Origin: Escherichia coli
Lineage (GTDB): Bacteria; Pseudomonadota; Gammaproteobacteria; Enterobacterales; Enterobacteriaceae
Length of the DNA: 64,000 nucleotides
Direction: 5' to 3' (one strand)
Assembly: GCF_003018255.1 (NCBI RefSeq)
Contig: NZ_CP027440.1
The translations under genes and the position numbers were made by a program. Of this stretch, positions 717 to 42,473 are shown one piece after another. The notes under the pieces are model-generated. The model did no database searches, was not told the origin of the DNA, and saw only the letters and a list, made by a program, of their open reading frames with translations. Within the stretch, counting starts at the first letter, position 1; each line of letters begins with the position of its first letter.

Positions 717-749
717 TCCATTTCCGTCCAAATTCGTCCATATCCGTTT
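717..749 (+). promoter_or_regulatory. Direct repeats TCCAT(T/A)TCCGT between tRNA and integrase start; candidate integrase arm-type or operator sites
   Basis: tccatttccgtcc (717-729) and tccatatccgttt (737-749) seen directly; function inferred from position. Confidence 0.3.
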
Positions 750-896
750 GTAATTCAAAGGTAATTTATTTTTCCACAATAACCATATTTATTTTGTGGT
801 CTTTCCGTGTTGGTCATTTTTCATCCATTGACATCCACGCGATTTGGGGGCCAAATTGGGGGCTTAGACGTAGTTCGATAATAGTGAGGCCCCCAA

Positions 897-4533: not shown

Positions 4534-4581
4534 GGATGTAGTTTTAGATGAAATGTTCACAACAGAGTTTTGTTCATGAAT

Positions 4582-7239: not shown

Positions 7240-7294
7240 GTATTAAAGCCCATTCGCTGTAGCTCGGTGGAAGAGAGTATTTTGATATAAATAG

Positions 7295-16034: not shown

Positions 16035-16160
16035 AGTAGTATCAGAAAAATTTAGCAAACTGTCAAAATTTTTCTGAGACCCCTTTTGGTAACGGACTAT
16101 CTTGTTGTTTTTAAAATAATATTTAATGTAACAAATATGTAGTCTCTCTCTGGTCCTGGC

Positions 16161-16197
16161 TGGCAACGTGCTTAAGTGGTTCACGTTGCCAGTTTTT
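16161..16197 (+). terminator. Hairpin plus T-run in the recombinase-to-fimbrial-subunit intergenic region
   Basis: tggcaacgtg...cacgttgcca stem followed by agttttta; could instead be part of a switch element. Confidence 0.35.
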
Positions 16198-16401
16198 ACT
16201 CACTCACCGCATTACGGTTTTATGCCATTTTGAAAGCCATACTTCACTTCCACTGACATTTTATTTTTCACCCCCTTCGTCCACCACATTTTCTCCTGAA
16301 CTCACCACTCTGGCACTAACGGGAAAGTCTTACGCGGGTTTTCTCGTCACCAGAGTGAATCAGGGTTGAGCCCTGAGTGATCTTTCATCAAGGAGAAACG
16401 T

Positions 16402-16914
16402 ATGAAAAAAACGATGTTAAGCGCGTGTTTTTTACTGGTGGCCGGGAATGCGGTCGCCAATGATGGCACCATCCATTTTACCGGCAGTATTACCGACCAG
16501 ACATGCACCGTGGACAGCGGTTCGCAAAACCTGAACGTCGATCTGGGCAATGTAGGGCAAACCGCACTGAACGGTGCGGCCGGGATGAAAGCCTCCCCGA
16601 CGCGCTTCACGCTCAACCTGAGTGGTTGCCCTGATACCGTTACCGGGGCGAACGTGAAGTTTGACGGGACGTCTGATGGCGTAAACCAGAACCTGCTGGC
16701 GCTGGACAGCGGTACCGGGATTGCGACCGGCGTTGGTATCGAAATCGCCGATAAAAATGGTGCAGTCATTCCTCTGCATACGGCCTCAATGGATTACCCC
16801 CTCGCGGCAGGCAGCAATACGCTGGACTTCGTCGCCCGCTATGTTTCCACCGGTACCGCGGTAACCACAGGTACAGCTAACGGTACCTCGCAGTTCACCA
16901 TTAACTACAAATAA
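16402..16914 (+). CDS. Major fimbrial subunit (type 1 / chaperone-usher pilin)
   Basis: Signal peptide, conserved Cys pair, C-terminal donor-strand-like TSQFTINYK. Confidence 0.85.
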   Translation: MKKTMLSACFLLVAGNAVANDGTIHFTGSITDQTCTVDSGSQNLNVDLGNVGQTALNGAAGMKASPTRFTLNLSGCPDTVTGANVKFDGTSDGVNQNLLALDSGTGIATGVGIEIADKNGAVIPLHTASMDYPLAAGSNTLDFVARYVSTGTAVTTGTANGTSQFTINYK

Positions 16915-17027
16915 CGCTGTGCCGTCGCGGGGTTCACCACCTCTCCCATCCTACCCGACCTGGTGTACCGCCGCATAACAGGGACTGTTTCGCAGGGATG
17001 CGTATTTTTCGTCCGGAGAACAAGAAG

Positions 17028-17708
17028 ATGAACAGGTATGCAGACGTGGTGCTGGCACTGTTGCTGGCTTTCCTGAGCGTACAGGCGCAGGCCGGGATCG
17101 TGATTGGCGGTACGCGCGTGATTTATGACGGGGATAAAAAAGAGACGGCCGCCTCGGTACGCAACCCGGAGAAATCCGGCGTCTACCTGGTGCAAAGCTG
17201 GGTAGACAGTGGCGAACAGGGGGGCAAAACGCCGTTTATCGTCACGCCACCGTTGTTTCGCATTAATCCCGGCGAAGAGAACATGCTGCGCATTGTGCGC
17301 ACCGGAGGCAACCTGCCGCAGGACAGGGAGTCGGTGTTCTGGCTGAACGTGAAATCGATCCCCGCTACCGACGACAGCCATTCGCGCACCAACGTGTTGC
17401 AGGTAGTGGTCAAGTCGCGGCTGAAACTGTTTTACCGTCCGGCAGGCCTGGAAGGGCAGCCGGAGAGTGCCTATCACCAGTTGAGCGTTGCCCACAGCGG
17501 TAACCATCTTACCGTCAGCAATCCCACACCGTATTACGTCACGCTGTTCACCCTGAAGGTCGACGGGCAGGAGATTAAAGAGGCGGATATGGTGCCGCCG
17601 AAAGGCAGTGTGAGTTTCACGCTACCGTCAGCGACTGCAAGCGCGGTGACCTGGCAGGCCATCAGCGACTATGGCGGTGTCAGCCAGACCGAAAGCCGTA
17701 AGCTGTGA
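17028..17708 (+). CDS. Periplasmic fimbrial chaperone (PapD/FimC family)
   Basis: Start MNRYADVV with GGAGAA ribosome-binding site; signal peptide; chaperone-fold motifs. Confidence 0.85.
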   Translation: MNRYADVVLALLLAFLSVQAQAGIVIGGTRVIYDGDKKETAASVRNPEKSGVYLVQSWVDSGEQGGKTPFIVTPPLFRINPGEENMLRIVRTGGNLPQDRESVFWLNVKSIPATDDSHSRTNVLQVVVKSRLKLFYRPAGLEGQPESAYHQLSVAHSGNHLTVSNPTPYYVTLFTLKVDGQEIKEADMVPPKGSVSFTLPSATASAVTWQAISDYGGVSQTESRKL

Positions 17709-17719
17709 AGGAGGACGTG

Positions 17720-20236
17720 ATGAATAACCCGACGCCACGTTTGATGATAATCCTGCTGACGCTGTTGTTGGCAATAGTGCTTTTGTCTGGCTATTTGCGT
17801 AATGCCGAGGCGCGTGAGGTGTTTAACCCCCACGCGCTGGAGATTGATAACCCCGGCCAGCCGGTGGCGGATTTATCCACCTTTGCGGAATCCGGTGGTC
17901 AGCTACCTGGTACCTACCGCGTAACGGTCTTCGTGAACGGTGAAAAGCAGAGCGACGCACAGGATATTGCTTTTATTGACGGAGCCAAAAAGAAACTCAG
18001 CCCGCAGATAACGCCTGCGATGCTGAAAGCCTGGGGCGTCAAAACGGACGTCTTCCCGGCACTGGCAGCACTGCCGCCGGATCAACCACTGGATGATATT
18101 GGCCGCTATATCCCGATGGCCAACACTGAACTGCGCTTCAGTAAATTGCAGTTGAACGTCAGTATTCCCCAGGCGGCAATGAATGCCAGCGCCAGAGGAT
18201 ACGTGGATCCGTCCGAATGGGACGAAGGTGTCCCCGCCGCACTGCTGAACTACAACCTCAGCGGCAGCAACACCTGGCGCGATGGACAAAACGGTTCGGA
18301 TGATAACTACTACGCGAACCTGCAAAGCGGTATCAACCTCGGCGCGTGGCGGCTACGCAACTACTCGACCTGGAATTATGACGAAGATAATGGTAGCCAC
18401 TGGGATTCAGTAAACACGTACCTGCAACGGGATATCCAGCGCCTGAAGGGACAACTGACGCTCGGCGACAGCTACACGCCGTCGGACATCTTCGACAGCG
18501 TCCAGTTTCGCGGCGCGCAGTTGGCATCTGACGACAACATGCTGCCGGACAGCCTGCGCGGGTTCGCCCCGGTGATCCGCGGTATCGCCCAGTCTAACGC
18601 TCAGGTGACCATTAAGCAGAACGGCTACATCATCTACCAGAGCTACGTCGCGCCGGGTGCGTTTACCATCACCGATCTGTATCCGACCTCGGGCAGCGGT
18701 GACCTGGAAGTGACCATCAAAGAGGCCGACGGCAGCGAGCGCACCTTCGTCCAGCCGTTCTCGGCGGTGCCGATTATGCAACGTGAAGGCCGCCTGAAAT
18801 ATGCCCTGACCGCCGGGAAATACCGCAGCGGCAATGAGGACAGCGACGAGCCGCAGTTCGGCCAGGTCACTGCGATTTACGGTCTGCCGCATGCTATCAC
18901 CGTCTATGGCGGCACGCTGTACTCGGACGATTATCAGTCTGGCGCCGCAGGGCTCGGTTTTGGCCTCGGTGAACTCGGTTCGCTGTCAGCCGATATCACC
19001 GCCGCCCATACCACGCTCAATAACGATGAAACCCACAACGGGCAGTCGTACCGGGTGCAGTATTCGAAGGATTTTCAGACCACCGACACCAGCTTCACGC
19101 TGGCGGCATATCGCTACTCCACCGCCGGATTTTACACCTTCCAGGAAGCCAACGACCTGAGGGCTGATGATGATAACGGCTGGCAGATGACGTACAACAA
19201 ACGCCAGCGCCTCCAGTTAGATCTCAGTCAGAGTATCGGTAGCTATGGCTCGTTTTTTATCTCCGGCTACCAGCAGGATTACTGGCAGGAGGACGGCTAC
19301 GAACGCACGTTGAGCGCGGGCTGGAACGGGAATATCGACGGTATCAGCTACAGCGTTACCTGGAGTTACAGCGACTACCCGGAGAGCACGCAGCCTGCCG
19401 ACCAGCAACTGGCGTTCAACATCCAGGTGCCGCTCAGCCGCTTTATGCCGAACGCCTGGGCGAGCTACAGCGTCAACACCGCGAAACACGGCGATACCCG
19501 CCAGCAGGTAGGGCTGAACGGTACGGCGCTTGCCGACAACAACCTGAGCTACAGCCTCCAGCAGAGCTACACCAACCATGGTGTGGGCGGCTCCGGCAAT
19601 ATCAACGCCGACTATAAAGGCGGGCAGGGGGAAATCACCGGAGGCTACAACTATGACGACGACACGCAGCAGGTTAACTACGGGCTGAAGGGCGGTATTG
19701 TCGCGCATCCGCATGGCATCACGCTTTCGCAGCCGCTCGGCCAGTCGCTGGCGATCGTGAAAGCGCCCGGTGCGGATGATACGAAGGTACAGAACAACAC
19801 CGGGGTTTACACCGACTGGCGCGGTTATGCGGTAGTGCCGTATGTGAACCCGTACAAGAAAAACCGTATTGCGCTCGACACCAGCACGCTTGGCGACGAA
19901 GTGGATACCGACACTGCCGTACAGACCGTGACCCCCACGCAGGGTGCCGTGGTGATGGCGGATTTTAACACCCGTGTCGGGCGGCGTGTGCTCATGACGC
20001 TGCTGTACCGTGGGCTGCCAGTCCCCTTTGGCGCAGAGGCGAAGCTGAAAGAGGGCGGCAGCGGTATTGTCGGCGATGATGGCCAGGTCTATCTGACTGG
20101 CGTGCCGGAGGAAGGCGATATTGCGGTTAACTGGAACGGAGCACAACAGTGCGTGGTGCATTACCGTTTACCGGAACAGGAAAACCAGCCGTCAGTGATC
20201 CTGGTGAACCAGGAATGCAGGGAGGTGGCAAAATGA
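17720..20236 (+). CDS. Outer-membrane fimbrial usher (FimD/PapC family)
   Basis: About 840 aa, signal peptide, usher length and composition; AGGAGG ribosome-binding site before ATG 17720. Confidence 0.9.
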   Translation: MNNPTPRLMIILLTLLLAIVLLSGYLRNAEAREVFNPHALEIDNPGQPVADLSTFAESGGQLPGTYRVTVFVNGEKQSDAQDIAFIDGAKKKLSPQITPAMLKAWGVKTDVFPALAALPPDQPLDDIGRYIPMANTELRFSKLQLNVSIPQAAMNASARGYVDPSEWDEGVPAALLNYNLSGSNTWRDGQNGSDDNYYANLQSGINLGAWRLRNYSTWNYDEDNGSHWDSVNTYLQRDIQRLKGQLTLGDSYTPSDIFDSVQFRGAQLASDDNMLPDSLRGFAPVIRGIAQSNAQVTIKQNGYIIYQSYVAPGAFTITDLYPTSGSGDLEVTIKEADGSERTFVQPFSAVPIMQREGRLKYALTAGKYRSGNEDSDEPQFGQVTAIYGLPHAITVYGGTLYSDDYQSGAAGLGFGLGELGSLSADITAAHTTLNNDETHNGQSYRVQYSKDFQTTDTSFTLAAYRYSTAGFYTFQEANDLRADDDNGWQMTYNKRQRLQLDLSQSIGSYGSFFISGYQQDYWQEDGYERTLSAGWNGNIDGISYSVTWSYSDYPESTQPADQQLAFNIQVPLSRFMPNAWASYSVNTAKHGDTRQQVGLNGTALADNNLSYSLQQSYTNHGVGGSGNINADYKGGQGEITGGYNYDDDTQQVNYGLKGGIVAHPHGITLSQPLGQSLAIVKAPGADDTKVQNNTGVYTDWRGYAVVPYVNPYKKNRIALDTSTLGDEVDTDTAVQTVTPTQGAVVMADFNTRVGRRVLMTLLYRGLPVPFGAEAKLKEGGSGIVGDDGQVYLTGVPEEGDIAVNWNGAQQCVVHYRLPEQENQPSVILVNQECREVAK

Positions 20237-21237
20237 GAGTATGGCGCGGGATGATTCTGCTGGCGGGGATCCTGTTCTGCCAGGCGTCGTGGGCGTTTTG
20301 CACGTCTTCGGTGAGTTTCTCCATCAGCCCCGGTACGGTGGTGGTCCAGCGGGATGCTGTGGTGGGGGAACCCATTAGCGACTGGCTGGTGTCGAACCAG
20401 GGGATGGCCTATCAGGACTGCAATTATGATGCAACGCCACAATACGTCATCAATGCAGGCATCAAAAACACGGGCTCCCGCGCCAGCGTCACCTGGAATG
20501 GTGAGGCGGTGTTTAACAGTAATGTCGCAGGTGTGGGATTTGTGTTTGAAGGCCGCTCCTCGGTCGACAGCAATCCGTTACCGGAAAACTGGATCGGTAT
20601 CGCCAGCGGGCAGTCGCAGGTATTCACGCTCCAGATAAGCCACAGCGTTGGCTACCATCCCTCCATTAACGATCAGGCGCGGATCCGGCTGATAAAAACC
20701 GGCGACATTACGCCCGGTACGCTGAGCGGCAACCTGGGGCGTTTTATCGCGGGGACAAGGGAGAACGGGCAGTGGTCGACTGAAATTCCCATTACATTTT
20801 CCGGTGGGCAAATCACCACCATCGCCTGCTCAGTGACCACGCCTGATGTCAATGTGCCGCTGGGGCAGCATCAAAAAGCGGAGTTCTCCGGGCCGGGAAC
20901 GGGAACCGGCTGGCAGGCGTTTAACATCGGGCTGGACTGCGATAAAAGTGCCCGTATCAACGTTCAGATAGATGCCGTACAGGATCCGTCCAACGTGGCT
21001 GGCGTGATGAAGCTGGACAGCGCGCCCGGAGACATGGCGGCTACGGGCATCGGTGTCCAGTTGTTCTTTGCACCGGATAACAGCGCCGTACAGTTTGGTC
21101 AGTCACGCTATTACTATACCTCTCCCAATGGCGGTACTGAGACAGTGCAGCTTAAGGCGCGGTATTACCAGACCGCAGCCACGATTACTGCAGGTGTTGC
21201 CAATGCCACGGCGACCTTCACGCTGACCTATAAATGA
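20233..21237 (+). CDS. Fimbrial minor subunit / adhesin-like protein 1
   Basis: Start MRVWRGMILLAGILFCQASWA overlaps the usher stop by 4 bp (ATGA); pilin-type C-terminus ATFTLTYK. Confidence 0.7.
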   Translation: MRVWRGMILLAGILFCQASWAFCTSSVSFSISPGTVVVQRDAVVGEPISDWLVSNQGMAYQDCNYDATPQYVINAGIKNTGSRASVTWNGEAVFNSNVAGVGFVFEGRSSVDSNPLPENWIGIASGQSQVFTLQISHSVGYHPSINDQARIRLIKTGDITPGTLSGNLGRFIAGTRENGQWSTEIPITFSGGQITTIACSVTTPDVNVPLGQHQKAEFSGPGTGTGWQAFNIGLDCDKSARINVQIDAVQDPSNVAGVMKLDSAPGDMAATGIGVQLFFAPDNSAVQFGQSRYYYTSPNGGTETVQLKARYYQTAATITAGVANATATFTLTYK

Positions 21238-21255
21238 CGTCGCCGGAGTGTTGAG

Positions 21256-22203
21256 ATGAGAAAAATTCTTTTCTTCCTGCTGTTGATGATAGCCGTCCTG
21301 CCGGAGGTTCAGGCCACCTGTTCGTTCTACGGTGGTGTGACATCAGAAGTATCGGGTTACCTGAATTTCGGCAACGTGGTTATCCAGCGGGATGCACAGG
21401 TCGGCAGCACGATTGCCACTGCCATTACAGGGGCATACAACAATGGCGACGGCATTGCCGGGTGTAAGCGGGAGGCCTGGACCGCCCGCTGGGAACTGAC
21501 GCAATGGGGGACGCTGAGTGGCTATGGGAATGGTGTCTACAACACCAACCTGCCAGGGGTAGGATTACGTCTGAGTGCGGCCTCGACAGGTAAAACATTG
21601 CCCTATGAAACCAGCTACGCCTACAACGCTGGCGGCACCTGGGTATCCATTCCCGGTGATGGCATCAAGGGCGAGCTTATCAAAACCGGGGATATCACCA
21701 GCGGTACATTAACGGACGGTGTGCTGGCGCGCGCTTCGGTAGTGAATCAGTTTTATTTTGCCAACGTCACGTTGAACGGGATGAACACAGTGAAATCAGA
21801 AGCTTGTACTGTGACCACGCCCTCTGTTGATGTCCCGATGGGGGATCACGATAAAAGCGAATTCAGTGGTGCGGGATCTTCAACCGACTGGGTGAGCTTT
21901 GATATTGGTTTGAGCTGCGATGTCGGGGCGAGAATAAACGTACGTATCGATGCCACTGCGGATGCTTCCGCCGGTTCGCAAGGCGTCATGCTGATTGATA
22001 GCGGCGGGGCGTCTGGCGTGGGGATACAACTTCATTACCGCCCGGATGATGCCGCTGTCCAGTACGGTCAGGAACGGTTTTACTGGCAGTCGGTATATGG
22101 TGACGAGATCGTGCAGCTTAAGGCGCGATATTACCAGACTGCAGGCTCGATCACGCCAGGTGCGGCAAACGGTACGGCGACGTTTACGATGAGTTATAAA
22201 TAG
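21256..22203 (+). CDS. Fimbrial minor subunit / adhesin-like protein 2 (paralog of previous)
   Basis: Signal peptide MRKILFFLLLMIAVLPEVQA; C-terminal pilin domain ATFTMSYK matching the previous gene. Confidence 0.7.
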   Translation: MRKILFFLLLMIAVLPEVQATCSFYGGVTSEVSGYLNFGNVVIQRDAQVGSTIATAITGAYNNGDGIAGCKREAWTARWELTQWGTLSGYGNGVYNTNLPGVGLRLSAASTGKTLPYETSYAYNAGGTWVSIPGDGIKGELIKTGDITSGTLTDGVLARASVVNQFYFANVTLNGMNTVKSEACTVTTPSVDVPMGDHDKSEFSGAGSSTDWVSFDIGLSCDVGARINVRIDATADASAGSQGVMLIDSGGASGVGIQLHYRPDDAAVQYGQERFYWQSVYGDEIVQLKARYYQTAGSITPGAANGTATFTMSYK

Positions 22204-29978: not shown

Positions 29979-30899
29979 TTATCTATTAGTAGCAACTCTA
30001 TCCGCAGCAGTACGGGTAACTTGATTTCCAACATCCCAGCCGTTTTCATCTGGGAGTGACATCCCATCCATTGGCATTAGGATAAAACCACCAATAGTTG
30101 GTCCAAATGACTCAGTAGTGTTAATTCCTGCATAGCTTGTTCTGATAATATTTTCATTCAAATTGGTCAAAAATGATATTCGAGTACCAAGTGGGTGCGC
30201 GGTTACCATTTGGATGTATCCACCAATAGTATTGACTGTTTCTTGGTTAATCCAATTATTCAAAGCAATAAACGGGGTACGCCACCAATTTATTGTGTTA
30301 GGAGTAAATTGTTGCCTGGTATTCTCTATAAACTCATTAAGTTCATGCAAGTTATCACCTAATAAAACAGGTCTGCCTGTTGATAAATTTTGAATATCTT
30401 CAATCTGGAGGTTGGCTGGGTGCTCAATAGAGTTATTGAGTTTTATAATTTTGTAGGTTTGTGTTCTCCAGCAAAAACCAAAAATTATCATCTGTATTCT
30501 TACTGCTTGGGGAAAGGATTGGCCGATATCAGACATATATTGCTCGGCAATATTTTTTGCTAATGAAGCTATTTCATTAAGACTTGGGAATGCTTCGGTC
30601 GATATTTGTTGTTCTGGATTATTGTTCGCAATCTCATGAAGTCTTGCTAATGATACTGCAAGCATTTCTTTGACATTAATTCCAATCATTGTACTTCCTG
30701 CAAATCCGAAGCCAAATTCGAATATTTTTTGCGGGTGAATTCGATAAACGTCCGAAGAGCGAATAACTGATACGGGGATTGAGAATAATTTCGGACAATG
30801 GTCAGTTAGTCTGCTATTTTGCTGAGTGATTCTTGAGTCGCTGACTGCCCAAATACTATCGCTTTCCTCTCTATTAAACCAACATGCAATTGCGGTCAT
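29979..30899 (-). CDS. Candidate N-terminal-nucleophile hydrolase with proteasome-beta/HslV-like N-terminal region and ~130-aa C-terminal extension
   Basis: From the internal start, M-TAIACWFNREESDSIWAVSDSRIT...FGFGFAGS echoes HslV TTIVSV...VIAGDGQAT...AGFAGG; AT-rich. Confidence 0.45.
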   Translation of the reverse strand: MTAIACWFNREESDSIWAVSDSRITQQNSRLTDHCPKLFSIPVSVIRSSDVYRIHPQKIFEFGFGFAGSTMIGINVKEMLAVSLARLHEIANNNPEQQISTEAFPSLNEIASLAKNIAEQYMSDIGQSFPQAVRIQMIIFGFCWRTQTYKIIKLNNSIEHPANLQIEDIQNLSTGRPVLLGDNLHELNEFIENTRQQFTPNTINWWRTPFIALNNWINQETVNTIGGYIQMVTAHPLGTRISFLTNLNENIIRTSYAGINTTESFGPTIGGFILMPMDGMSLPDENGWDVGNQVTRTAADRVATNR

Positions 30900-30947: not shown

Positions 30948-33590
30948 TTATTGCGAGATTACCGAGCTTAGGGTTATCGCCGCCTCCACTTCACTACACC
31001 CTGTCTCCTTCATAATCCGCATCCTATCGGCCTTTTCATGTTTCTCTGTCATCGCCAGCGCCAGATAGAGCGCTGGCGGCACCACCCGAAACAGTGCCTC
31101 TATACGCGGTGAAAGCACCACGCCCTCGGTATACTGCCCCGGTGATTTTACCGCTGAGCGCAGCAGTTGGCTCTGTTCTTCCGTAAGCGCTTTAAACCGG
31201 CAGACCTGCTCGATCTCTTCCGGCGGCATCACCAGTAGTTCCCACCATTCGATCATATTGAGCAGCTTCTTCGCCTCATCAGGAAAATCCGCCAGGTTCT
31301 GGGTGGCGAGCCACAGCCAGATACCGAGCTTGCGCCACATCTTCGAGCCTTTGGTGAGAAAGCGCGCCAATAAGGGATTAACAGTGATGATATGCGCCTC
31401 ATCGGTGATATTGACGATAGGCCTCGCCAGATGCTGGGCGCGCTCGCCGAGGTTATTGATATGGTTAATCAGCGAGATATAGCTGATGGCAAGCTGCGCT
31501 TCATAGCCTTCGCGGGCAAAGGTGGCGAGATCCACTAGGGTGATATCCGCCTCCGGCCACATCTGGCCTTCACGGTTAAACAGTTCGCCTTCAAACCCGG
31601 CGCAGAACAGGTTGATGGATTCCGCCATTTCATACGCCCTCTGGCGGCGGGCTTCCGGCAGACTGTTGTCGCGGGAAAGGGCGAACAGTGCGTCACGGAT
31701 ATCCTGGGTCAGCGTCTGTCGTTTTTCCTCGTAGCAGGTGTGCGCGGCAGCGATAATCGCCTGGCGGATCATCGCCCGATCCGGCCGGGTGAGGCGCGCA
31801 TCCTCTTTCGCTTCACCACCGGTAATCATCAACCGGGCGGTGATCTCCATTTCACCCAGCACGTCGCGCTGGTCATCGCCGTCGCTCTCTTCGTCCTCTG
31901 GCGGTTCGGCGTCGGTAACTGCCTGTTCCACCAGTCGCCACGCATCGGCGAACAGGGGCAGGGTGACGCCAGAACCGGGGCGCAGGCTGATTTTATTCAC
32001 CGTCAGGCCGTGGGCGGCGGCGTAGTCGGCCATCAGGCCAAATGAGTTTCCGGCCTCGATGATAAACAGGCGCGGACGATGTAGCGCCATCAGTTGCGCG
32101 ATTTTCGCGTTGAGGGTGGCGGATTTGCCCGCTCCGGTTGGCCCAAGAAGTAAAAGGTGTCCGTTCTGGGCACGATCCAGCTTGTTCAGCGGATCGAAGC
32201 ACAGCGGCGTGCCGCCCCGGTTGAAGTAGCTGATCCCCGGATGCCCGGTGCCGGTTTCCCGTCCGTACAGCGGCAGCAGCCCGGCGATATGCTGCACAAA
32301 GTTGAGCCGGGTATACAGCCCGCGCGGGTCGCGCAGGGGATCGAAGCACATCGGCAGCCAGCGCAGCCAGTGGCTTAAGGGGGCGACTTCGTGCTGCTCC
32401 TGCACCGGAACCAGCCCGGCGTTGAGCAGCAGGCTCTGTAGCTGACGCTGCTGGCGGAACAGGATATCGGTGTCCGGCGCGCTGAGATAAAACGCCAGCG
32501 TGCTGCGGTAGAGTTTATGGCCGTCCTTCAGGAAGCTTCGCACCTCGCTGCAGTCGCGGCGGGTGTATTCCGAATCGGTATTGTCGCCAATCGCCCGGTC
32601 GGCCAGGCGGCTGATGTGTTGCTCCAGCTTGTCCTGCGGATACACCACCACGGTCAGGTTCATGATGGTTCCGCCAGGCAGCAGGTCGACCAGGGCGTTA
32701 ATGCCGTCTCCGCGCGCGGTTTCCCCGGTCAGCAGGCCGGGCGGCGGCGCTTTGCGCAGGCGGTCAACCACCACCACTTTATGCGGGCGGTTATCCAGCC
32801 ACCAGACGCCGTTTGCCGCATCCGAACGGGGTTCACTCGCCAGCAGGCGTTCGGCGAAATCGGCCAGGACCGGCAGCGGTTCAGTTTCCGGCAGGTCAAG
32901 CTGCTGCCAGAAGGCTTTTTTGTCCTCAGCAGGCGGCGCGGGATTAAACCAGCGCACCAGCCAGCGGTGAATGTCCTGCTCATTCTGGCGGATAGCGCTG
33001 ATACCCGCCGCTTTTAGCCCGGCGGTAAGGCGTTCGCAGATATTATTCAGCGTCTCTTCCGGCGACGGTTCATCCGGTGAAAGTCCAGGAAGCCATCGGT
33101 ACACCACCATCCGCGTGCGCCGCCACGTCGCCCGCCAGCGGGTACGGGTGACGGTGTTATCGAGAAACAGTCCCTCGTCGCGGGTGAGATTCACCATATG
33201 GTTTGCCATCTGTGTGAGCCACTCGCGGGTAAAGGCGGAGTCGCGGATTTCCGGTGCGGCGTAAGAGGCAAGTGATGCCAGCCACGCCTCGCTGTCGTCC
33301 TCATCCTGACAGAAAAACTGTACCACCCACGGTGCGCGCTCATGCTCATCAAACGCATCCTGTAAGGCATCGGTGACGGTATCGCGGACCTGTTCCAGAA
33401 ACGCCGTTGAGCGGCCTTCGGTGCCAACGGGATATAGCTCAAATACGGCACCTACCGAGCGGCCATCTTCCAGCAGCAGCGTCTGCGACTCCGGCAAAAA
33501 CTCCACCCACGGCAGCCAGTCGACAAATGACGGGCCCTTGCGGTAGCTGGTATTCAGCGCCTGTTCAGTCAGGCCGCGCCGTTCATTCAT
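30948..33590 (-). CDS. Conjugative-transfer ATPase (TraC/VirB4-like)
   Basis: 880 aa; Walker A LLLLGPTGAGKSATL. Confidence 0.85.
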   Translation of the reverse strand: MNERRGLTEQALNTSYRKGPSFVDWLPWVEFLPESQTLLLEDGRSVGAVFELYPVGTEGRSTAFLEQVRDTVTDALQDAFDEHERAPWVVQFFCQDEDDSEAWLASLASYAAPEIRDSAFTREWLTQMANHMVNLTRDEGLFLDNTVTRTRWRATWRRTRMVVYRWLPGLSPDEPSPEETLNNICERLTAGLKAAGISAIRQNEQDIHRWLVRWFNPAPPAEDKKAFWQQLDLPETEPLPVLADFAERLLASEPRSDAANGVWWLDNRPHKVVVVDRLRKAPPPGLLTGETARGDGINALVDLLPGGTIMNLTVVVYPQDKLEQHISRLADRAIGDNTDSEYTRRDCSEVRSFLKDGHKLYRSTLAFYLSAPDTDILFRQQRQLQSLLLNAGLVPVQEQHEVAPLSHWLRWLPMCFDPLRDPRGLYTRLNFVQHIAGLLPLYGRETGTGHPGISYFNRGGTPLCFDPLNKLDRAQNGHLLLLGPTGAGKSATLNAKIAQLMALHRPRLFIIEAGNSFGLMADYAAAHGLTVNKISLRPGSGVTLPLFADAWRLVEQAVTDAEPPEDEESDGDDQRDVLGEMEITARLMITGGEAKEDARLTRPDRAMIRQAIIAAAHTCYEEKRQTLTQDIRDALFALSRDNSLPEARRQRAYEMAESINLFCAGFEGELFNREGQMWPEADITLVDLATFAREGYEAQLAISYISLINHINNLGERAQHLARPIVNITDEAHIITVNPLLARFLTKGSKMWRKLGIWLWLATQNLADFPDEAKKLLNMIEWWELLVMPPEEIEQVCRFKALTEEQSQLLRSAVKSPGQYTEGVVLSPRIEALFRVVPPALYLALAMTEKHEKADRMRIMKETGCSEVEAAITLSSVISQ

Positions 33591-37336: not shown

Positions 37337-37570
37337 TCAGCTCAGTACCAGCCAGAAGCTGACTAGCACCAGTAACAGTGAATGGGCCGCCACCGCGCCA
37401 AAGCTCTGCCAGCTCAGACGCTGGCGGCAGACGCCCTGCCAGGCGACCATTAGCGTCCAGGCACACCACAGCAGCAGGACGCTGGTAAACAGGCCGAGCA
37501 CCAGCAGGCTGACGGTCTCCGGTTTGCTCAGGCTGGCGGCCTGAAAGGCGGCGAGTTGCGAGTCAGTCAT
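37337..37570 (-). CDS. ICE small membrane protein
   Basis: Two transmembrane segments, 77 aa. Confidence 0.4.
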   Translation of the reverse strand: MTDSQLAAFQAASLSKPETVSLLVLGLFTSVLLLWCAWTLMVAWQGVCRQRLSWQSFGAVAAHSLLLVLVSFWLVLS

Positions 37571-37871
37571 CGGGATTCTCCTGCTGGTAGTTGGCGCTCA
37601 GGGGCTGAATAGCACGCGGCTGTGCTCTAGCCGGGGCAAGATAGCGGCGAATGCCTTGTTCAACGACAGAGATGTCCTGCTGCGCCTGTAAGTAGTCGAA
37701 GAAGTAGCGCGCCTGCGGATCGTTGCTGGCGCTGGTCCGGGCGTGCTCCAGCGAGGTTTTAACGCCGTCGAGTTGCTTCAGCGCGAGGGCGAGCTGGGTG
37801 GATTCCGGGGAGGCGATTACCAGTACCGGGAAAGGTATTATTAACAGTAATAGTGCTGTCTGGGACTGCAT
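37563..37871 (-). CDS. RAQPRD-family ICE protein
   Basis: Contains ARAQPRAIQP plus a signal peptide. Confidence 0.55.
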   Translation of the reverse strand: MQSQTALLLLIIPFPVLVIASPESTQLALALKQLDGVKTSLEHARTSASNDPQARYFFDYLQAQQDISVVEQGIRRYLAPARAQPRAIQPLSANYQQENPDD

Positions 37872-37938
37872 TTGAAGCTCTCCTTATACTCAATGATTAG
37901 CAAAGTAGGAGAGCTTCAGAGGTGAAGCAGCTAAAAAA

Positions 37939-39180
37939 TCATTTCACTACATGAAGAATTTTTAGCATAGAGTTGTCAATGGTCTGTTTGATTTTCTCGT
38001 AATAAATTGGTTCAGATAATGGCGAGTCCCAGGTATGTATATCATTTTTATCAAAGGGAATACATTTCATCGCTGTCTTTTTTAGTTTTTTCCCTTTTTG
38101 TTCGTACTCGTCAATGTCATTTACAGTGAATTTCAAACTTTCTATTCTTGCTTTGACTATTGCTGTTGGGCAGATGAGTTTTATATTCCCTAAAGTAAAT
38201 GTGTTAACTCCAGTAATGAAGAATCTATCAGGGATGTTTTTATAGTATCGAGTATTCCATATTTTACCATTAAACATACCTGCTGGGTGAGTTGCTCTTT
38301 CAATATAGTATTCATGGGTTCTCTGGTCACTAATCCCTGAAAGATTCATTGTCATATTAGCTATCATGTTGGGAATAGGTCTGTACCAAACGCTAAGTGC
38401 AGCGGTTGCGACAGGTATAAATATTAAAACAACAATAATTCCTGTCATTTTATTGCCGTTTTGCCGTTCATTAATATGTATGATACCAGGCAGAATGCCA
38501 ATTGTAACAATAACTACAGTTATGGCAATGAGTATGCTCATCTCATACCAGTCACTAGTACCCTCACTGAAATTAAGTTGGTTAAACAGAAACATCATTG
38601 GTAATATTTGTACTACTCCAGGTATTATAAGTTGTAAGGATAACCAGAAGTTGAATCCTTTCTTTCTGGATAGTTTTTCGTATCGCACTGTATTATTTAA
38701 GCGAGATTTTTGTTTTCTAAATAGCCGAATCGCACATGTAACATAGCTGTGAATAAATATGGAAATAATACTAAAGGCTGTAATTATGTAGCCATTCCAT
38801 TTTGTCATGTAATAAATGTAATAAGCAATGATTAGCAGGCAGCATATAAATAAGCTATTCTGATAGCAAACAGTAGAAATCCGATGGGTGATGCTAGAAT
38901 ATACCTTTAACTTGTTTTCATATCCAGAGTAAATAAGTATTAAAATAAAAGATGAGATGAAAATTATTAGGCTGAATCCTGATATCGATAATAAAATAAA
39001 AAAGAATATAATCCCTAAGGTTGAACTGAGGTTTACAGCATCGAAAAAAATATCTAATCTATCAATGTTTGATAGGTAAAACCATATAACTGCTATCGTG
39101 AATCCAGTGATGAAGGTAGATGAGGTTACTACTGAAATAATGAATTTTTTGTTTATGATATTAAAAATAGGTTTGTCCAT
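37939..39180 (-). CDS. AT-rich polytopic membrane protein of unknown function inserted within the T4SS operon
   Basis: 413 aa; about 7 N-terminal transmembrane helices plus a C-terminal soluble domain; codon usage unlike the flanking GC-rich genes. Confidence 0.6.
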   Translation of the reverse strand: MDKPIFNIINKKFIISVVTSSTFITGFTIAVIWFYLSNIDRLDIFFDAVNLSSTLGIIFFFILLSISGFSLIIFISSFILILIYSGYENKLKVYSSITHRISTVCYQNSLFICCLLIIAYYIYYMTKWNGYIITAFSIISIFIHSYVTCAIRLFRKQKSRLNNTVRYEKLSRKKGFNFWLSLQLIIPGVVQILPMMFLFNQLNFSEGTSDWYEMSILIAITVVIVTIGILPGIIHINERQNGNKMTGIIVVLIFIPVATAALSVWYRPIPNMIANMTMNLSGISDQRTHEYYIERATHPAGMFNGKIWNTRYYKNIPDRFFITGVNTFTLGNIKLICPTAIVKARIESLKFTVNDIDEYEQKGKKLKKTAMKCIPFDKNDIHTWDSPLSEPIYYEKIKQTIDNSMLKILHVVK

Positions 39181-39225
39181 GGTTTGAATTCCATCTCTAA
39201 AAAATTTCTTGTCTTGTGTTTTTTA

Positions 39226-39510
39226 TCACCAATTTACAGGTAAGCGCCGATGGGTATGAAACACGCGTAAAACCTGAATTATATTATTTCGTACTCGATA
39301 GGGAATGATATAAGGGTAATTATGAAGAATGAGCTCACGTGTTTCAGGTACCCTTCCTTCCCGGCCCATAGCGGGTTGCTCTTTGAGCAGTTGCGTAAGT
39401 CGCCAGACTTCGTTCACAAACCGTTCCGCAGCCTGCGGATCGTCTTCAGCAATATACCGGAACTCAGCTTCGAGATTGGCAATGGCTTTACGTAGCCACT
39501 TAATTTCCAT
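39226..39510 (-). CDS. ParE/RelE-family type II toxin
   Basis: 94 aa; ...ILHNYPYIIPYRVRNNIIQVLRVFH. Confidence 0.75.
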   Translation of the reverse strand: MEIKWLRKAIANLEAEFRYIAEDDPQAAERFVNEVWRLTQLLKEQPAMGREGRVPETRELILHNYPYIIPYRVRNNIIQVLRVFHTHRRLPVNW

Positions 39511-39745
39511 CTGGCTTTACTCCCAGACGTTGAAACAGCTTATCCACCTCATCTGAAGTGGCAAAATCACCGGCATCAGCTTCCTGAATGGCCTGCTCAA
39601 TCTCTGCAACTTGCCAGGCCTCCCGGGCAACATAATCTTCAATTGCCTGATTTGCCAGCCAGGACTTTGAGCGTCCGGTCGCTTTTGATAATGCTTCCAG
39701 TTGCGTGGAAAGATTGTTGTTTAAACGGACTGACATTACGCCCAT
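39500..39745 (-). CDS. Ribbon-helix-helix antitoxin (ParD/CopG-like)
   Basis: Start MGVMSVRLN with GAGG ribosome-binding site; overlaps the toxin start. Confidence 0.65.
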   Translation of the reverse strand: MGVMSVRLNNNLSTQLEALSKATGRSKSWLANQAIEDYVAREAWQVAEIEQAIQEADAGDFATSDEVDKLFQRLGVKPDGN

Positions 39746-39810
39746 ATTGGTGGCCTCATACACATGTACACATTGTATACATTGTAGTGAGGTGCGATTT
39801 TTTGAGCAAC

Positions 39811-40458
39811 TTATAACCAACGTTTAAAGCTTCCTGCTGCCATCCATACCGCTATCCCGGACCATAAGGCGGCAGGAAGTAAAACCAGCATCGCGGGCAG
39901 AGAAAATGGCTGCGCCAGATAAACCACCCAAAGCGTGGTGGTGACTGAACTGCCGCACCTGATGACATAACGGTGGAGAAAAATGGATTCCAGCCCGGAG
40001 CCAAACCGTCTTAAATCCCGGTGTACCAGGCCTTCTGTCAGCCCGGTTACAGCACTGAGGCACAGCAGTGGCAACATGATAACCAGCCACGTCAGGCGCA
40101 GCGCAAAGCTGATCATGGTATAAGCCAGGACGGTAACGGGTTCGTGGAACAACCGACTCACGGCCTTATGTCTGACATCATTAACGCGGGTTATTCCATG
40201 CTCCAGCAGTACTCGTATCTCTTTCCCCAAAGGATGTGGCTGTACCGCAATAATCAGTTCCACCTTCTCCTGCCTCATCACCTGAAAAACATGCCTGCTC
40301 CCTTCCTGCGGCCACCAGAAATATAGCCCCACTAGTTCCAGCACCACTCGCAGCACCAGCGTACCGATAACCAGCCCAATAATCCGTCCGGCCAGTGACA
40401 ATAGCCAGCCAATCGGTCCCTGTGGTGGGCGTGACGGAGGCGGTCGCAGCTCACTCAT
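39811..40458 (-). CDS. ICE integral membrane protein
   Basis: Start MSELRPPP; 4-bp overlap with the TraD stop; multiple transmembrane segments. Confidence 0.5.
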   Translation of the reverse strand: MSELRPPPSRPPQGPIGWLLSLAGRIIGLVIGTLVLRVVLELVGLYFWWPQEGSRHVFQVMRQEKVELIIAVQPHPLGKEIRVLLEHGITRVNDVRHKAVSRLFHEPVTVLAYTMISFALRLTWLVIMLPLLCLSAVTGLTEGLVHRDLRRFGSGLESIFLHRYVIRCGSSVTTTLWVVYLAQPFSLPAMLVLLPAALWSGIAVWMAAGSFKRWL

Positions 40459-42473
40459 TCCGTTAGCCCCTGCTGGCGCGCCTGCATCCACGCCGCCAGT
40501 TGCGCGACAGAATCTGGTAGTGGGCATTGCTTATCCGCTACGGGCAGCGGCAGACGAATTTTCCACAACTGCCCGCCTTCCAGCAGGGCAAAAGCCTGGC
40601 CTTTGGGGAGCTGGATCAGCGCGGCGGTATCCAGCAGCGGTACATTGCGGGTGGTCACCTGCTCGCAGGTGTTGCTGGTAAAGCCGTTGATGCCGCCCGG
40701 CGTGTCGGTGACACCTGAACTGACCTGGCGGCTGCGCACTTCCACCTGTGGCAGTTGCTTCGTCAGCAGTTCGGCGGTGGCGGTTTCGCGTACCCGCAGC
40801 ATAATCAGGTTGTTGAAGTTACCCACCACCTGGCCTGTCTTTGGTGCGCTGCCGATACGGGCCTGAATATCACTCAACGTCTGCGTGTAGGCGGTGACCT
40901 GAATGCCCGCACCGCCGCCCTTGTTGACCAGGGGAATAAACTCCTCGCCCATCAGTTCATTAAACTCATCGCAGTGCAGATTGATAGGCGGCGGTTTTTC
41001 GCTATTGCCGGGCAGTCCATCATTGAGGCCAAATTTATACAGATGCCCGGCGACGCTCACCAGATCGGCAAACATCGAATTGCCGACGGCGGCAGCGACC
41101 ACCGAATCGGAGAGCGCGTCCAACCCGACATAGACTACCGCCTTCTGGCGGATCGCCTGTTGCCAGTCGAGGATCGGACGCGCGTCGTCCAGATCGTGGT
41201 AATCCGGGGCCAGCAGGGCGGCAAGCGTGCCGGTGGTCAGCTTTTCCAGCAGTGGCAGCAGTGAGGCGACAATCTTGTCGAAATAGGTTTTGTCATAGCG
41301 CACCGCCGAGAGCAGGCCATCGAGGATCGGATCGTATAATTTTTCCGCGTTGAGGTACTGCTCCAGCGCCACCACGTGAGGATCGCGGCCCAGCATGTGG
41401 CGCGGCGTGTTTTTGTCGTTAACGCGCTCCGCCAGTTGCACCACCACTTCCCATGACCGCGTGTTGTGGCGCGGCAGCACGATGCGGGCATAGTCGATAA
41501 ACAGGGCGTCGATATTGACGACGTGGCGGGAAATTAACTGATAGTCGGGGCGCTGGCCGAGCGCCACCAGGGCGCGGGCGATGATGTTGACAAAGCGCCA
41601 GGCGAACTCGCGAAAGGCCGCCGAGTTGCCTTCGCCGGAAAGCTGACCAGTGAGGCGAGACGCCACCTCCGAAATGCGGCCAAATCGCCCGATAGCGTTG
41701 TAGCGGGCGGAGAACTCCGGGTACGCCAGATGGAACAGGATAAAGCGGTCGCCGCGTCCGGCGCGCTGCGCTTCTTTCCACATACGCTTCAGCAGATCCG
41801 CGTCGCCTTTCGGATCAAAAACGATCACCACCTCGCCACGGCGGATGTCCTGAGTGGCAAGCAGTTCCGCCAGCCGGGTTTTGCCAACGCGGGTGGTGCC
41901 GAGCACCAGCGTATGGCCGGGGCGTTCACTGAGCGGCAGAGTGACGTCGCACTCTTTTAGTTCCACCCCATGCAACCACGGATTGCCGCCTACGGGTGGC
42001 AGCGGACGTACTGGGTTCAGCCAGCGATCGGCGCTGAGCAGTCGGGCAAGGCCGGGCAGGGTATGCTCGCTGCGTTTTTCGATGTGTCTTGCCAGGCGGT
42101 AACACCATCCGGGGCGCAGCCAGCGTGCGGCTTCCGGTTGCAGGCAGTCGTACAGACGCTGTGTGTGGATGGGCTGCCAGCGAAAGCCTTTACCGAGAAA
42201 CAGCCTCTGGCGGCTGACGGGGATTTTCCGGCTGGTGAGCGCGTAGCGCGGCAGGCGCAGGAGGTTACGCTGGTAGCGTACGATTTGCCATCCCTGCCAG
42301 CCGCGCCGCAGGGCCAGAAGCATCAGGGCACTGGCCATCATGCGGGCCTGCCACGGCGTCAGCATCAGCAGCGGGGCCTGCGTCAGGCAGATTAATGCGC
42401 CACAGCCAGCGATGACGGTGCTGTAAAACTCCACGGGTGGGCGCAGCAGCGCCTCCAGCGCGTAGCGGCTCAT
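40455..42473 (-). CDS. Conjugative coupling protein TraD (VirD4-type ATPase)
   Basis: 672 aa; N-terminal transmembrane segments; Walker A LVLGTTRVGKT. Confidence 0.8.
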   Translation of the reverse strand: MSRYALEALLRPPVEFYSTVIAGCGALICLTQAPLLMLTPWQARMMASALMLLALRRGWQGWQIVRYQRNLLRLPRYALTSRKIPVSRQRLFLGKGFRWQPIHTQRLYDCLQPEAARWLRPGWCYRLARHIEKRSEHTLPGLARLLSADRWLNPVRPLPPVGGNPWLHGVELKECDVTLPLSERPGHTLVLGTTRVGKTRLAELLATQDIRRGEVVIVFDPKGDADLLKRMWKEAQRAGRGDRFILFHLAYPEFSARYNAIGRFGRISEVASRLTGQLSGEGNSAAFREFAWRFVNIIARALVALGQRPDYQLISRHVVNIDALFIDYARIVLPRHNTRSWEVVVQLAERVNDKNTPRHMLGRDPHVVALEQYLNAEKLYDPILDGLLSAVRYDKTYFDKIVASLLPLLEKLTTGTLAALLAPDYHDLDDARPILDWQQAIRQKAVVYVGLDALSDSVVAAAVGNSMFADLVSVAGHLYKFGLNDGLPGNSEKPPPINLHCDEFNELMGEEFIPLVNKGGGAGIQVTAYTQTLSDIQARIGSAPKTGQVVGNFNNLIMLRVRETATAELLTKQLPQVEVRSRQVSSGVTDTPGGINGFTSNTCEQVTTRNVPLLDTAALIQLPKGQAFALLEGGQLWKIRLPLPVADKQCPLPDSVAQLAAWMQARQQGLTE

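What the first reader, a model, noticed from the sequence alone, without database searches (positions are those of the whole stretch)
37939..39180. AT-rich polytopic membrane protein inserted in the middle of the GC-rich T4SS operon
This 413-aa multi-pass membrane protein has codon usage strikingly different from its neighbours and sits beside a ParE/RHH toxin-antitoxin pair (39226-39745). Its position and composition suggest a later insertion; candidate roles are entry exclusion, abortive infection or another membrane-acting defence function.
Basis: partly seen in the sequence, partly recalled or inferred. Interest (0 to 1): 0.45.

Follow-up and report, generated by a model that had tools for sequence, protein, structure and literature searches.

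The report
Unknown membrane protein in ICE defence hotspot
An AT-rich gene for a seven-helix membrane protein of an uncharacterised family sits in a known anti-phage cargo slot inside the transfer operon of an E. coli integrative conjugative element (ICE), which makes it a plausible but untested new envelope-acting defence gene.

Summary
ORF 37939-39180 (-) encodes 413 aa at GC 0.32, against about 0.62 in the flanking type IV secretion genes. A ParE/RHH toxin-antitoxin pair lies beside it.

The gene is cargo, not a core transfer gene. It lies between traD/DUF4400 and the RAQPRD gene of a PFGI-1-class ICE at tRNA-Leu, the slot published as "GI-Hotspot 8". Related E. coli ICEs carry a dCTP deaminase, a TIR+DUF4231 pair or DUF1848 genes there instead. 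A Salmonella ICE carries the gene without the toxin-antitoxin pair, so that pair is a separate 572-bp cassette.

The protein belongs to an unnamed family of about 295 clusters, mostly Enterobacterales, including a relative on more than 1,200 plasmids. No Pfam, NCBIfam, PADLOC, PHROGs or PDB match was found. The predicted architecture is seven transmembrane helices, N-terminus in, with a periplasmic C-terminal domain of about 145 aa carrying two invariant cysteines. dN/dS is 0.11-0.33.

Most of the 18 contexts sampled are mobile elements, and about half lie near restriction or defence genes.

Best guess (about 0.4): a stand-alone, envelope-acting anti-phage protein. Conjugative entry exclusion is unlikely. 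Function is untested.

The parts
37939..39180 (-). Cargo gene for a 413-aa protein of an uncharacterised family. Predicted seven transmembrane helices (about 14-32, 53-86, 101-126, 131-154, 180-202, 216-234, 246-267), N-terminus cytoplasmic, C-terminal domain 268-413 periplasmic. C337 and C373 are invariant; the SGISD..H motif is at residues 280-289.
   Evidence: ORF; RefSeq CDS; GC 0.32; topology; AlphaFold2 model with pLDDT 80.7; conservation; dN/dS 0.11-0.33; no family match
37819..39810 (.). Variable cargo region of the traD/DUF4400 | RAQPRD slot (GI-Hotspot 8). It is not alignable to related E. coli ICEs that carry other cargo.
   Evidence: blastn breakpoints; alternative cargo in L002, L003 and L004; hotspot definition in PMC12629846
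39208..39779 (.). 572-bp toxin-antitoxin cassette, present here but absent from the Salmonella ICE that has the membrane gene in the same slot.
   Evidence: blastn junction, window 39207/39780 against L013 7973/7971; L013 gene map
39226..39510 (-). ParE/RelE-family toxin, 94 aa.
   Evidence: PF05016, E = 1.3e-17; RefSeq annotation
39500..39745 (-). RHH (CopG/RelB-like) antitoxin, 81 aa from the RefSeq start. It overlaps the toxin gene by 11 nt.
   Evidence: RHH_1 and RelB-like hits; RefSeq CDS
39770..39785 (.). Palindrome ACATTGTATACATTGT about 25 nt upstream of the antitoxin start. Probably the operator of the toxin-antitoxin promoter (inference).
   Evidence: inverted repeat I13; sequence
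39811..40458 (-). DUF4400/TIGR03747 (DtrJ-like) ICE membrane protein; the upstream boundary gene of the slot. Its 3' part is itself variable between ICEs.
   Evidence: Pfam and NCBIfam; breakpoints at 39811, 40268 and 40441; aa identity to Salmonella 73%, against 94-99% for other backbone genes
40455..42473 (-). TraD coupling protein; the named boundary of GI-Hotspot 8.
   Evidence: TIGR03754, 1012 bits
37563..37871 (-). RAQPRD-family ICE protein; the downstream boundary gene of the slot.
   Evidence: PF09686 and TIGR01690
37873..37918 (-). Perfect 12-nt inverted repeat with a 22-nt loop, between the cargo gene's stop codon and the RAQPRD start codon. It overlaps the RAQPRD ribosome-binding site. 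Role unknown.
   Evidence: inverted repeat I7; sequence

Best explanation
Shown: the gene is horizontally acquired cargo in the variable slot between traD/DUF4400 and the RAQPRD gene (published as GI-Hotspot 8) of a PFGI-1/ICEclc-class integrative conjugative element at tRNA-Leu in E. coli. It is co-oriented with the transfer operon, and no terminator lies between them on that strand. It is under purifying selection. It moves independently both of the ICE backbone and of the neighbouring ParE/RHH cassette.

Predicted: it encodes a stand-alone inner-membrane protein of an unnamed family. The protein has seven transmembrane helices with the N-terminus in the cytoplasm, and a periplasmic C-terminal domain of about 145 aa (a small beta-barrel plus helices) held by a conserved cysteine pair. 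There is no cytoplasmic output domain and no strictly conserved catalytic-type residues.

Inferred (most likely function): the protein protects its host and element at the envelope against incoming phage. The periplasmic domain would meet a phage component at the inner-membrane face, such as the tail tip, an ejection protein or a transglycosylase. The seven-helix bundle would then either block genome translocation (superinfection-exclusion type) or perturb the membrane (abortive type). With no partner gene and no cytoplasmic domain, I favour direct exclusion over abortive killing.
For: The slot is a defence hotspot:
- 29.3% of more than 40,000 instances carry known defence systems, none carries anti-defence, AMR or virulence modules, and many proteins there are uncharacterised (PMC12629846).
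- Related E. coli ICEs hold an anti-phage dCTP deaminase or a TIR+DUF4231 pair in exactly this place.

The gene behaves as mobile cargo:
- Only 2 of 43 related ICEs carry it.
- dS is 1.42 against 0.19-0.44 for the backbone genes.
- The Salmonella ICE allele is closer to the alleles in E. coli CP4-like islands (dS 0.26-0.29) than to the window allele.

Homologues sit next to restriction or defence genes:
- Serratia: type I R-M and McrB.
- Photorhabdus: between SIR2/HerA-like and RT+ATPase genes.
- K. pneumoniae: McrBC and HNH/ScoMcrA.
- Brenneria: McrBC and a CdiI/RNase pair.
- Pectobacterium: ICE cargo with ArdC and CHAT.
- Pantoea plasmid: an 869-aa SIR2 protein.
- Enterobacter: SymE, HNH and Mrr.
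- One relative lies at a prophage end, after the tail genes.

It always occurs as a single gene with no conserved partner.

Topology and the cysteine pair are conserved family-wide, and the gene is under purifying selection.

The same ICE carries other defence cargo: AbiE, DUF262-DUF3696 and a Dcm/Vsr cluster.
Against: - There is no experimental evidence, and no homology or fold match to any known defence, exclusion or abortive-infection protein.
- About 70% of GI-Hotspot 8 instances carry no recognised defence system.
- Several family members are not in defence contexts. The common E. coli copy sits next to a gentisate-catabolism cluster. P0051 sits by an IclR regulator and a type I secretion system. 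Distant Pseudomonas and Pantoea agglomerans members are in the core chromosome.
- The family is essentially absent from sequenced phages: 0 of 50,697 records, and 1 IMG/VR contig. That is atypical for classical superinfection-exclusion genes.
- The context tally covers 18 hand-picked loci with no background control.
- The topology comes from hydropathy and charge bias only, not from a dedicated predictor or an experiment.
Confidence: 0.4

Rival explanations
1. Neutral or niche-adaptive membrane cargo unrelated to conflict. It could be a transporter, a receptor or an envelope-remodelling protein that hitch-hikes on mobile elements and happens to occupy the hotspot.
For: About 70% of hotspot instances have no known defence system. 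The commonest E. coli allele lies beside a gentisate/3-hydroxybenzoate catabolic cluster. The Pseudomonas member lies beside OprD/DUF4198/HGSNAT genes. The Pantoea agglomerans member is in a conserved core-chromosome position.
Against: There is no similarity to any transporter or enzyme family or fold. No charged or polar residue is invariant within the transmembrane helices; the invariant residues are W33, F74, S77, P194, P231 and P270. No conserved metabolic neighbour recurs across the contexts sampled.
Confidence: 0.2
2. Envelope immunity against non-phage attack. The protein would be an orphan immunity or protection factor against a periplasm- or membrane-acting bacteriocin, CDI toxin or T6SS effector.
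For: It has a periplasmic, apparently disulfide-bonded domain on a membrane anchor. Some neighbours are inter-bacterial conflict genes: CdiI_2/RNAse_A_bac in Brenneria, and T6SS remnants with Tox-REase-5/Imm52 in E. coli BA92. A relative is widespread on IncFIB plasmids; from my own knowledge, that plasmid type often carries colicin genes.
Against: No cognate toxin gene is adjacent in any context sampled. From my own knowledge, known immunity proteins are much smaller. PMC12629846 reports no antibacterial modules in GI-Hotspot 8.
Confidence: 0.15
3. A function that benefits the element itself. The protein might modulate the host envelope for ICE or plasmid transfer or maintenance, for example mating-pair stabilisation, recipient-surface alteration, or inhibition of competing conjugative elements.
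For: It is co-oriented within the transfer operon with no intervening terminator. Relatives are found on more than 1,200 plasmids, 946 of them typed as conjugative, and beside replication and recombinase genes.
Against: It is absent from 41 of 43 related E. coli ICEs, so it is dispensable for transfer. It is present in non-conjugative islands and in core chromosomes.
Confidence: 0.1
4. Conjugative entry or surface exclusion protein of this ICE. An inner-membrane protein in the recipient would block redundant transfer of the same element.
For: It is an inner-membrane protein encoded inside the T4SS operon. From my own knowledge, it is AT-rich and divergent in the way F-plasmid TraS is.
Against: Closely related ICEs with the same T4SS lack it and carry cytoplasmic enzymes in the slot instead. 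Homologues occur without any T4SS. On IncF plasmids the relative sits beside RepFIB, not in the tra region. From my own knowledge, at 413 aa it is far larger than TraS or Eex, which are about 140-170 aa.
Confidence: 0.06
5. Spurious or decaying ORF in AT-rich junk DNA.
For: It is AT-rich, and every source annotates it only as hypothetical. The ICE has a partial integrase gene and a topoisomerase III gene with an internal stop.
Against: dN/dS is 0.11-0.33. There are 295 clusters of conserved length (375-430 aa) and conserved architecture. The AlphaFold2 model is confident.
Confidence: 0.01

Closest known systems
Cargo of GI-Hotspot 8, the traD | RAQPRD variable region of PAGI-2/PAGI-3/LESGI-3 (ICEclc-like) islands (PMC12629846)
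   Same: It has the same flanking genes (traD with DUF4400 on one side, the RAQPRD family gene on the other). Content varies in the same way between otherwise collinear elements. Known defence genes occupy the same slot in sister ICEs.
   Different: The published survey centres on Pseudomonas, where CBASS type III dominates. Here the host is E. coli, and the cargo is a toxin-antitoxin cassette plus a protein that no defence catalogue recognises.
Inner-membrane superinfection-exclusion proteins of phages, such as T4 Imm, P22 SieA and HK97 gp15 (from my own knowledge)
   Same: It is a single-gene, membrane-embedded protein with no enzymatic domain, carried by a mobile element. In one case it sits at a prophage end, in the 'moron' position.
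   Different: There is no sequence or fold similarity. It is much larger, with seven helices and a 145-aa periplasmic domain. It is essentially absent from phage genomes and is carried by ICEs, plasmids and islands.
Membrane components of anti-phage systems, such as KwaA of Kiwa, ZorA of Zorya and RexB (from my own knowledge)
   Same: It is a polytopic inner-membrane protein found in defence islands.
   Different: Those proteins work with partner proteins, and this gene has no conserved partner. Foldseek matches to ZorA are insignificant (E about 1, TM-score 0.11-0.12). There is no PADLOC hit.
Conjugative entry-exclusion proteins, TraS of F and Eex of SXT/R391 (from my own knowledge)
   Same: It is an inner-membrane protein encoded within a transfer operon, and it is divergent and AT-rich.
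   Different: It is not conserved among ICEs that share the T4SS. It is present in elements without a T4SS. It is about 2.5 times larger than those proteins.
Polytopic serotype-converting or O-antigen enzymes, such as GtrC, Oac, Wzy and WaaL (from my own knowledge)
   Same: It is an AT-rich, poorly conserved polytopic membrane protein carried near integrases. The first periplasmic loop has conserved acidic residues (the RLD motif).

Membership tests
GI-Hotspot 8 cargo (traD | RAQPRD slot of ICEclc/PFGI-1-class ICEs) | The region is bounded by traD on one side and a RAQPRD-family ICE gene on the other. | tested here: met
   TraD at 40455-42473 (TIGR03754, 1012 bits), DUF4400 at 39811-40458 and RAQPRD at 37563-37871 (TIGR01690); the definition is in PMC12629846.
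GI-Hotspot 8 cargo (traD | RAQPRD slot of ICEclc/PFGI-1-class ICEs) | The content varies between otherwise collinear elements and often includes defence systems. | tested here: met
   The slot holds a dCTP deaminase (L002), TIR+DUF4231 (L003), a hypothetical gene plus DUF1848 (L004), or the 7TM gene alone (Salmonella, L013). Breakpoints were mapped.
Core component of the GI-type (MPF_G) T4SS | The gene is conserved in related ICEs and matches a TIGR037xx/ICE family model. | tested here: not met
   Only 2 of 43 related E. coli ICE loci carry it. It has no NCBIfam or Pfam hit. Its dS is 3-7 times that of the backbone genes.
Known anti-phage defence families (PADLOC-DB v2.0.0) | A significant match to a defence-protein HMM. 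| tested here: not met
   The query has no hit at E <= 1. Among 39 family members there are only three sporadic single-member hits, with E = 0.0024-0.025. Distant relatives have none.
Anti-phage defence gene (functional class) | The gene confers phage resistance when expressed in a naive host. | not testable with these tools
   This needs a wet-lab phage challenge. Only contextual association is available.
Conjugative entry exclusion (TraS/Eex type) | The gene is encoded by every element of an exclusion group and is tied to its T4SS. | tested here: not met
   It is absent from 41 of 43 related ICEs. Homologues occur without any T4SS.
Conjugative entry exclusion (TraS/Eex type) | The gene reduces acquisition of the cognate element when expressed in recipients. 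| not testable with these tools
   This needs a mating assay.
Phage superinfection-exclusion proteins | The gene is carried by (pro)phages. | tested here: not met
   There are no tblastn hits in 50,697 phage records and no PHROGs family. One IMG/VR contig has a copy on the contig edge, after the tail genes.
Type II toxin-antitoxin ParE/RelE-RHH (the neighbouring pair) | A toxin with the ParE/RelE fold, preceded by an overlapping RHH antitoxin gene. | tested here: met
   PF05016, E = 1.3e-17; RHH_1 and RelB-like hits; 11-nt overlap.
Three-gene module (TA pair plus 7TM protein) | The toxin-antitoxin pair and the membrane gene co-occur across loci. | tested here: not met
   The Salmonella ICE has the gene without the pair, and the junction is exact. 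No other context has this pair. The ParE next to the pIP1206 relative is only 32% identical and lies on the opposite strand.
GT-C glycosyltransferase / Wzy / O-antigen ligase / acyltransferase-3 (serotype conversion) | Sequence or fold similarity to these polytopic enzymes. | tested here: not met

The most novel reading that the evidence does not exclude
The protein is the founding member of a new class of single-protein anti-phage immunity. In this reading, a seven-helix inner-membrane protein uses a disulfide-bonded periplasmic domain to recognise the phage ejection machinery and blocks genome entry, or else collapses the membrane. The class would be spread on ICEs, genomic islands and more than a thousand IncF-type plasmids of Enterobacterales, and would have been missed by all current defence catalogues.
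Probability: 0.3. Interest if true: 0.7.

Novelty: new variant of a known kind. Interest (0 to 1): 0.45.

Why it matters
If the defence reading holds, this would add an envelope-level, single-gene system with a new fold to the anti-phage repertoire. It would show that the traD-RAQPRD hotspot described in Pseudomonas works the same way in E. coli and Salmonella ICEs.

It would also assign a function to a conserved 'hypothetical' gene carried by more than 1,200 plasmids in the PLSDB collection, 946 of them typed as conjugative, many from clinical isolates. That is relevant to phage therapy and to how plasmids and ICEs shape phage susceptibility.

If the reading fails, the gene remains a well-delimited example of cassette turnover inside a conjugation operon.

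Tried and rejected
- Family libraries: Pfam, NCBIfam, PADLOC and PHROGs scans of the query, of 39 family members and of distant relatives gave nothing significant. The single PDC-M03B hit (E = 0.005, 1 of 39 members) was rejected as chance.
- Solved structures by sequence: a profile search of PDB sequences gave only weak hits in transmembrane segments to opsins and GPCRs.
- Catalytic Asp/His idea for the SGISD..H motif: rejected, because some distant members have His->Tyr or Asp->Asn at those positions.
- TA pair plus membrane gene as a three-gene system: rejected.
- Flanking direct repeats or att-like sites around the cassette: none found.
- Promoter scan: the excess of matches is expected in AT-rich DNA and was not interpreted. 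No minus-strand terminator was found.
- Literature: searches by RefSeq accession and by concept found nothing on the family.
Full report
OBSERVATION

The ORF at 37939-39180 (minus strand, ATG start, 413 aa) is real. It is identical to the RefSeq CDS WP_178379332.1, annotated 'hypothetical protein', in E. coli JNE23-011. The window matches that genome at 100% identity, and RefSeq coordinates map one-to-one onto the window.

Its GC is 0.324 and its GC3 is 0.326. The flanking transfer genes have GC3 of 0.69-0.78, and the window mean GC is 0.52.

The ParE/RelE toxin (39226-39510) and RHH antitoxin (39500-39745) next to it are confirmed. The surrounding genes are the hallmark set of a PFGI-1/ICEclc-class ICE with a genomic-island-type T4SS: TraD, DUF4400/TIGR03747, RAQPRD, TIGR03758, TIGR03745, TIGR03750, PFL_4703, and PilL2 further along. 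The element sits at tRNA-Leu.

IT IS CARGO IN A KNOWN HOTSPOT

Forty-three complete E. coli genomes carry a related ICE segment, but only two have this gene in the slot. Between DUF4400 and RAQPRD the others carry:
- an 'anti-phage dCTP deaminase' plus a 62-aa ORF (strain C11, L002);
- a TIR protein plus a DUF4231 protein (HD12481, L003);
- a 265-aa hypothetical protein plus a DUF1848 protein (D7 type, the commonest, L004).

Homology to these ICEs stops at 37805-37818, inside the 5' end of the RAQPRD gene. On the other side it stops at 39811, 40268 or 40441, inside DUF4400.

A Salmonella ICE (L013) has a 73%-identical copy of the gene in the same slot but no toxin-antitoxin pair. Relative to it, the window has an exact 572-bp insertion at 39208-39779. 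The pair is therefore a separate cassette. It has its own palindromic putative operator at 39770-39785.

[quoted passage not shown] The paper reports that:
- 29.3% of more than 40,000 instances carry a known defence system;
- no anti-defence, AMR, virulence or antibacterial modules were found;
- many proteins there are uncharacterised;
- the hotspot also occurs in Serratia, Salmonella and Klebsiella.

THE CARGO TURNS OVER INDEPENDENTLY OF THE BACKBONE

Between the window ICE and the Salmonella ICE, backbone genes have dS of 0.19-0.44. The cargo gene has dS of 1.42. The two boundary genes are unusually diverged: DUF4400 is 73% and RAQPRD 79% identical at the protein level, against 94-99% for the other backbone genes.

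The Salmonella ICE allele is much closer to alleles in E. coli CP4-57-like chromosomal islands (dS 0.26-0.29) than to the window allele. dN/dS is 0.11-0.33 throughout, so the gene is functional. Low GC (0.32-0.36) is a property of the family, and holds even in Serratia.

THE PROTEIN

Hydropathy and the positive-inside rule give seven transmembrane helices with the N-terminus in and the C-terminus out. This holds for the query and when averaged over 42 family members:
- The N-terminus, loop 4 and loop 6 are net positive (+2.5, +4.0, +2.0).
- Loops 1 and 5 are net negative (-0.8, -2.2).
- The C-terminal domain of about 145 aa carries exactly two cysteines on average, the invariant C337 and C373. 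This fits a periplasmic disulfide, which is an inference.

AlphaFold2 gives a confident model (pLDDT 80.7, pTM 0.72) with the same helices and a beta-rich C-terminal domain. The domain modelled alone has pLDDT 77.7.

Residues invariant across the broad family are W33, F74, S77, P194, P231, P270, G282, F303, W308, C337, P338 and C373. D285 and H289 of the SGISD..H motif are replaced by Asn or Tyr in some members. There is therefore no convincing catalytic signature. There is also no cytoplasmic output domain.

NO KNOWN RELATIVE

There is no hit in Pfam, NCBIfam, PADLOC or PHROGs for the query, for 39 close relatives or for distant relatives. A profile search of PDB sequences gave nothing meaningful.

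FAMILY SIZE AND RANGE

- 54 clusters at 90% identity among close relatives, all in Enterobacterales.
- 83 clusters with a profile search.
- 295 clusters at 50% identity in an exhaustive HMM search, nearly all 375-430 aa. These reach Pseudomonas and Kushneria.

Every source annotates these proteins as hypothetical.

A 383-392-aa relative occurs on 1,249 plasmid records, of which 1,069 are Escherichia and 946 are typed as conjugative. It is 20-26% identical overall and about 30% identical in the C-terminal domain, and it shares the same architecture and invariant residues. On IncFIB plasmids it lies beside RepFIB and a tyrosine recombinase.

94 of 5,426 complete E. coli genomes carry a chromosomal homologue.

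CONTEXTS (18 LOCI INSPECTED)

On mobile elements or islands, with restriction or defence genes nearby:
- the two ICE hotspot copies;
- Serratia: type I R-M and McrB, in an island with integrase and AlpA;
- Photorhabdus: between SIR2/HerA-like and RT+ATPase genes, next to integrases;
- K. pneumoniae: McrBC and HNH/ScoMcrA in a CP4-like island;
- Brenneria: McrBC and CdiI/RNase;
- Pectobacterium: ICE cargo with ArdC, CcdAB and CHAT;
- Pantoea plasmid: an 869-aa SIR2 protein;
- Enterobacter: SymE, HNH and Mrr within 8 kb;
- E. coli BA92: a restriction enzyme and T6SS toxin/immunity remnants.

On mobile elements without obvious defence neighbours:
- K. quasipneumoniae: first gene after an integrase;
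- E. coli CP4-like islands, beside a gentisate cluster;
- IncFIB plasmids;
- E. coli P0051;
- one prophage end, after the tail genes.

In the core chromosome:
- distant Pseudomonas and Pantoea agglomerans members.

No partner gene is conserved across these contexts. Phage genomes lack the family.

INTERPRETATION

Firmly shown: this is an accessory, independently mobile, selectively maintained cargo gene in a documented defence hotspot. It is not a T4SS component, and it is not functionally tied to the adjacent toxin-antitoxin pair.

Inferred, at about 0.4 confidence: it is a stand-alone, envelope-acting anti-phage protein. With a periplasmic domain, no cytoplasmic domain and no partner, I favour blocking genome entry at the inner membrane over an abortive mechanism.

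Rival readings:
- conflict-unrelated membrane cargo (0.2);
- immunity to envelope-acting bacteriocins or effectors (0.15);
- a function that benefits transfer or maintenance of the element (0.1);
- conjugative entry exclusion (0.06), disfavoured by the gene's distribution;
- a spurious ORF (0.01), refuted by conservation.

LIMITS

- The context sample is small and was not compared with a background.
- The topology and the disulfide are predictions.
- No experiment bears on function.

VERDICT

This is a reasonable candidate for a new membrane-acting defence gene of unknown fold, placed in a hotspot that is already published. Interest is moderate.

Noticed in passing
window 591-2145 and 45886-47691: The ICE sits next to tRNA-Leu (591-675). 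Its integrase is annotated as partial (898-2145), and its topoisomerase III gene has an internal stop codon. The element may no longer be able to move on its own.
   Followed up: no
window 2773-4534: An AbiEi/AbiEii (type IV toxin-antitoxin / abortive infection) pair lies near the left end of the ICE. An HNH endonuclease (6587-7240) and an ArdC anti-restriction gene (9496-10401) follow.
   Followed up: no
window 53212-60101: A large AT-rich block (GC 0.32-0.35) lies at the right end of the ICE. It holds DUF262 and DUF3696 proteins, two hypothetical proteins, a DNA cytosine methyltransferase and a Vsr endonuclease. This looks like a second defence or restriction-modification cargo region.
   Followed up: no
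window 29979-30899: Another AT-rich gene (GC about 0.38) encodes a 306-aa hypothetical protein directly beside the conjugative transfer ATPase gene (30948-33590). It may mark a second cargo slot inside the transfer region.
   Followed up: no
window 15444-22203: A chaperone-usher fimbrial operon, preceded by a tyrosine-type DNA invertase gene, is carried as ICE cargo between transfer genes.
   Followed up: no
window 39811-40458: The DUF4400/TIGR03747 boundary gene is itself mosaic. Its GC is lower (0.54). Its NCBIfam score of 126.8 falls below the 138.5 cutoff, with only the C-terminal half matching well. Homology breakpoints to other ICEs fall inside it, and its dN/dS is raised (0.25).
   Followed up: partly
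window 37873-37918: A perfect 12-nt inverted repeat with a 22-nt loop overlaps the ribosome-binding site of the RAQPRD gene, just downstream of the cargo gene. It might couple or limit translation after read-through from the cargo.
   Followed up: no
L017 2670-3839; L018 5212-6381; L014 6269-7420: A distant relative of 383-389 aa (WP_001072358, WP_013087235) is part of the RepFIB/tyrosine-recombinase neighbourhood on more than a thousand IncF-type plasmids. It is annotated only as hypothetical.
   Followed up: partly
L004 7514-9243: The commonest cargo in this slot in E. coli ICEs (D7 type) is a 265-aa protein with no Pfam match plus a DUF1848 protein, both on the opposite strand. This is another uncharacterised pair in the defence hotspot.
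   Followed up: partly
L013 16712-17242: The Salmonella ICE carries a reverse-transcriptase (RVT_1) gene just after its TraC-like ATPase gene. This suggests a retron- or DRT-type cargo in another slot of the same ICE family.
   Followed up: no
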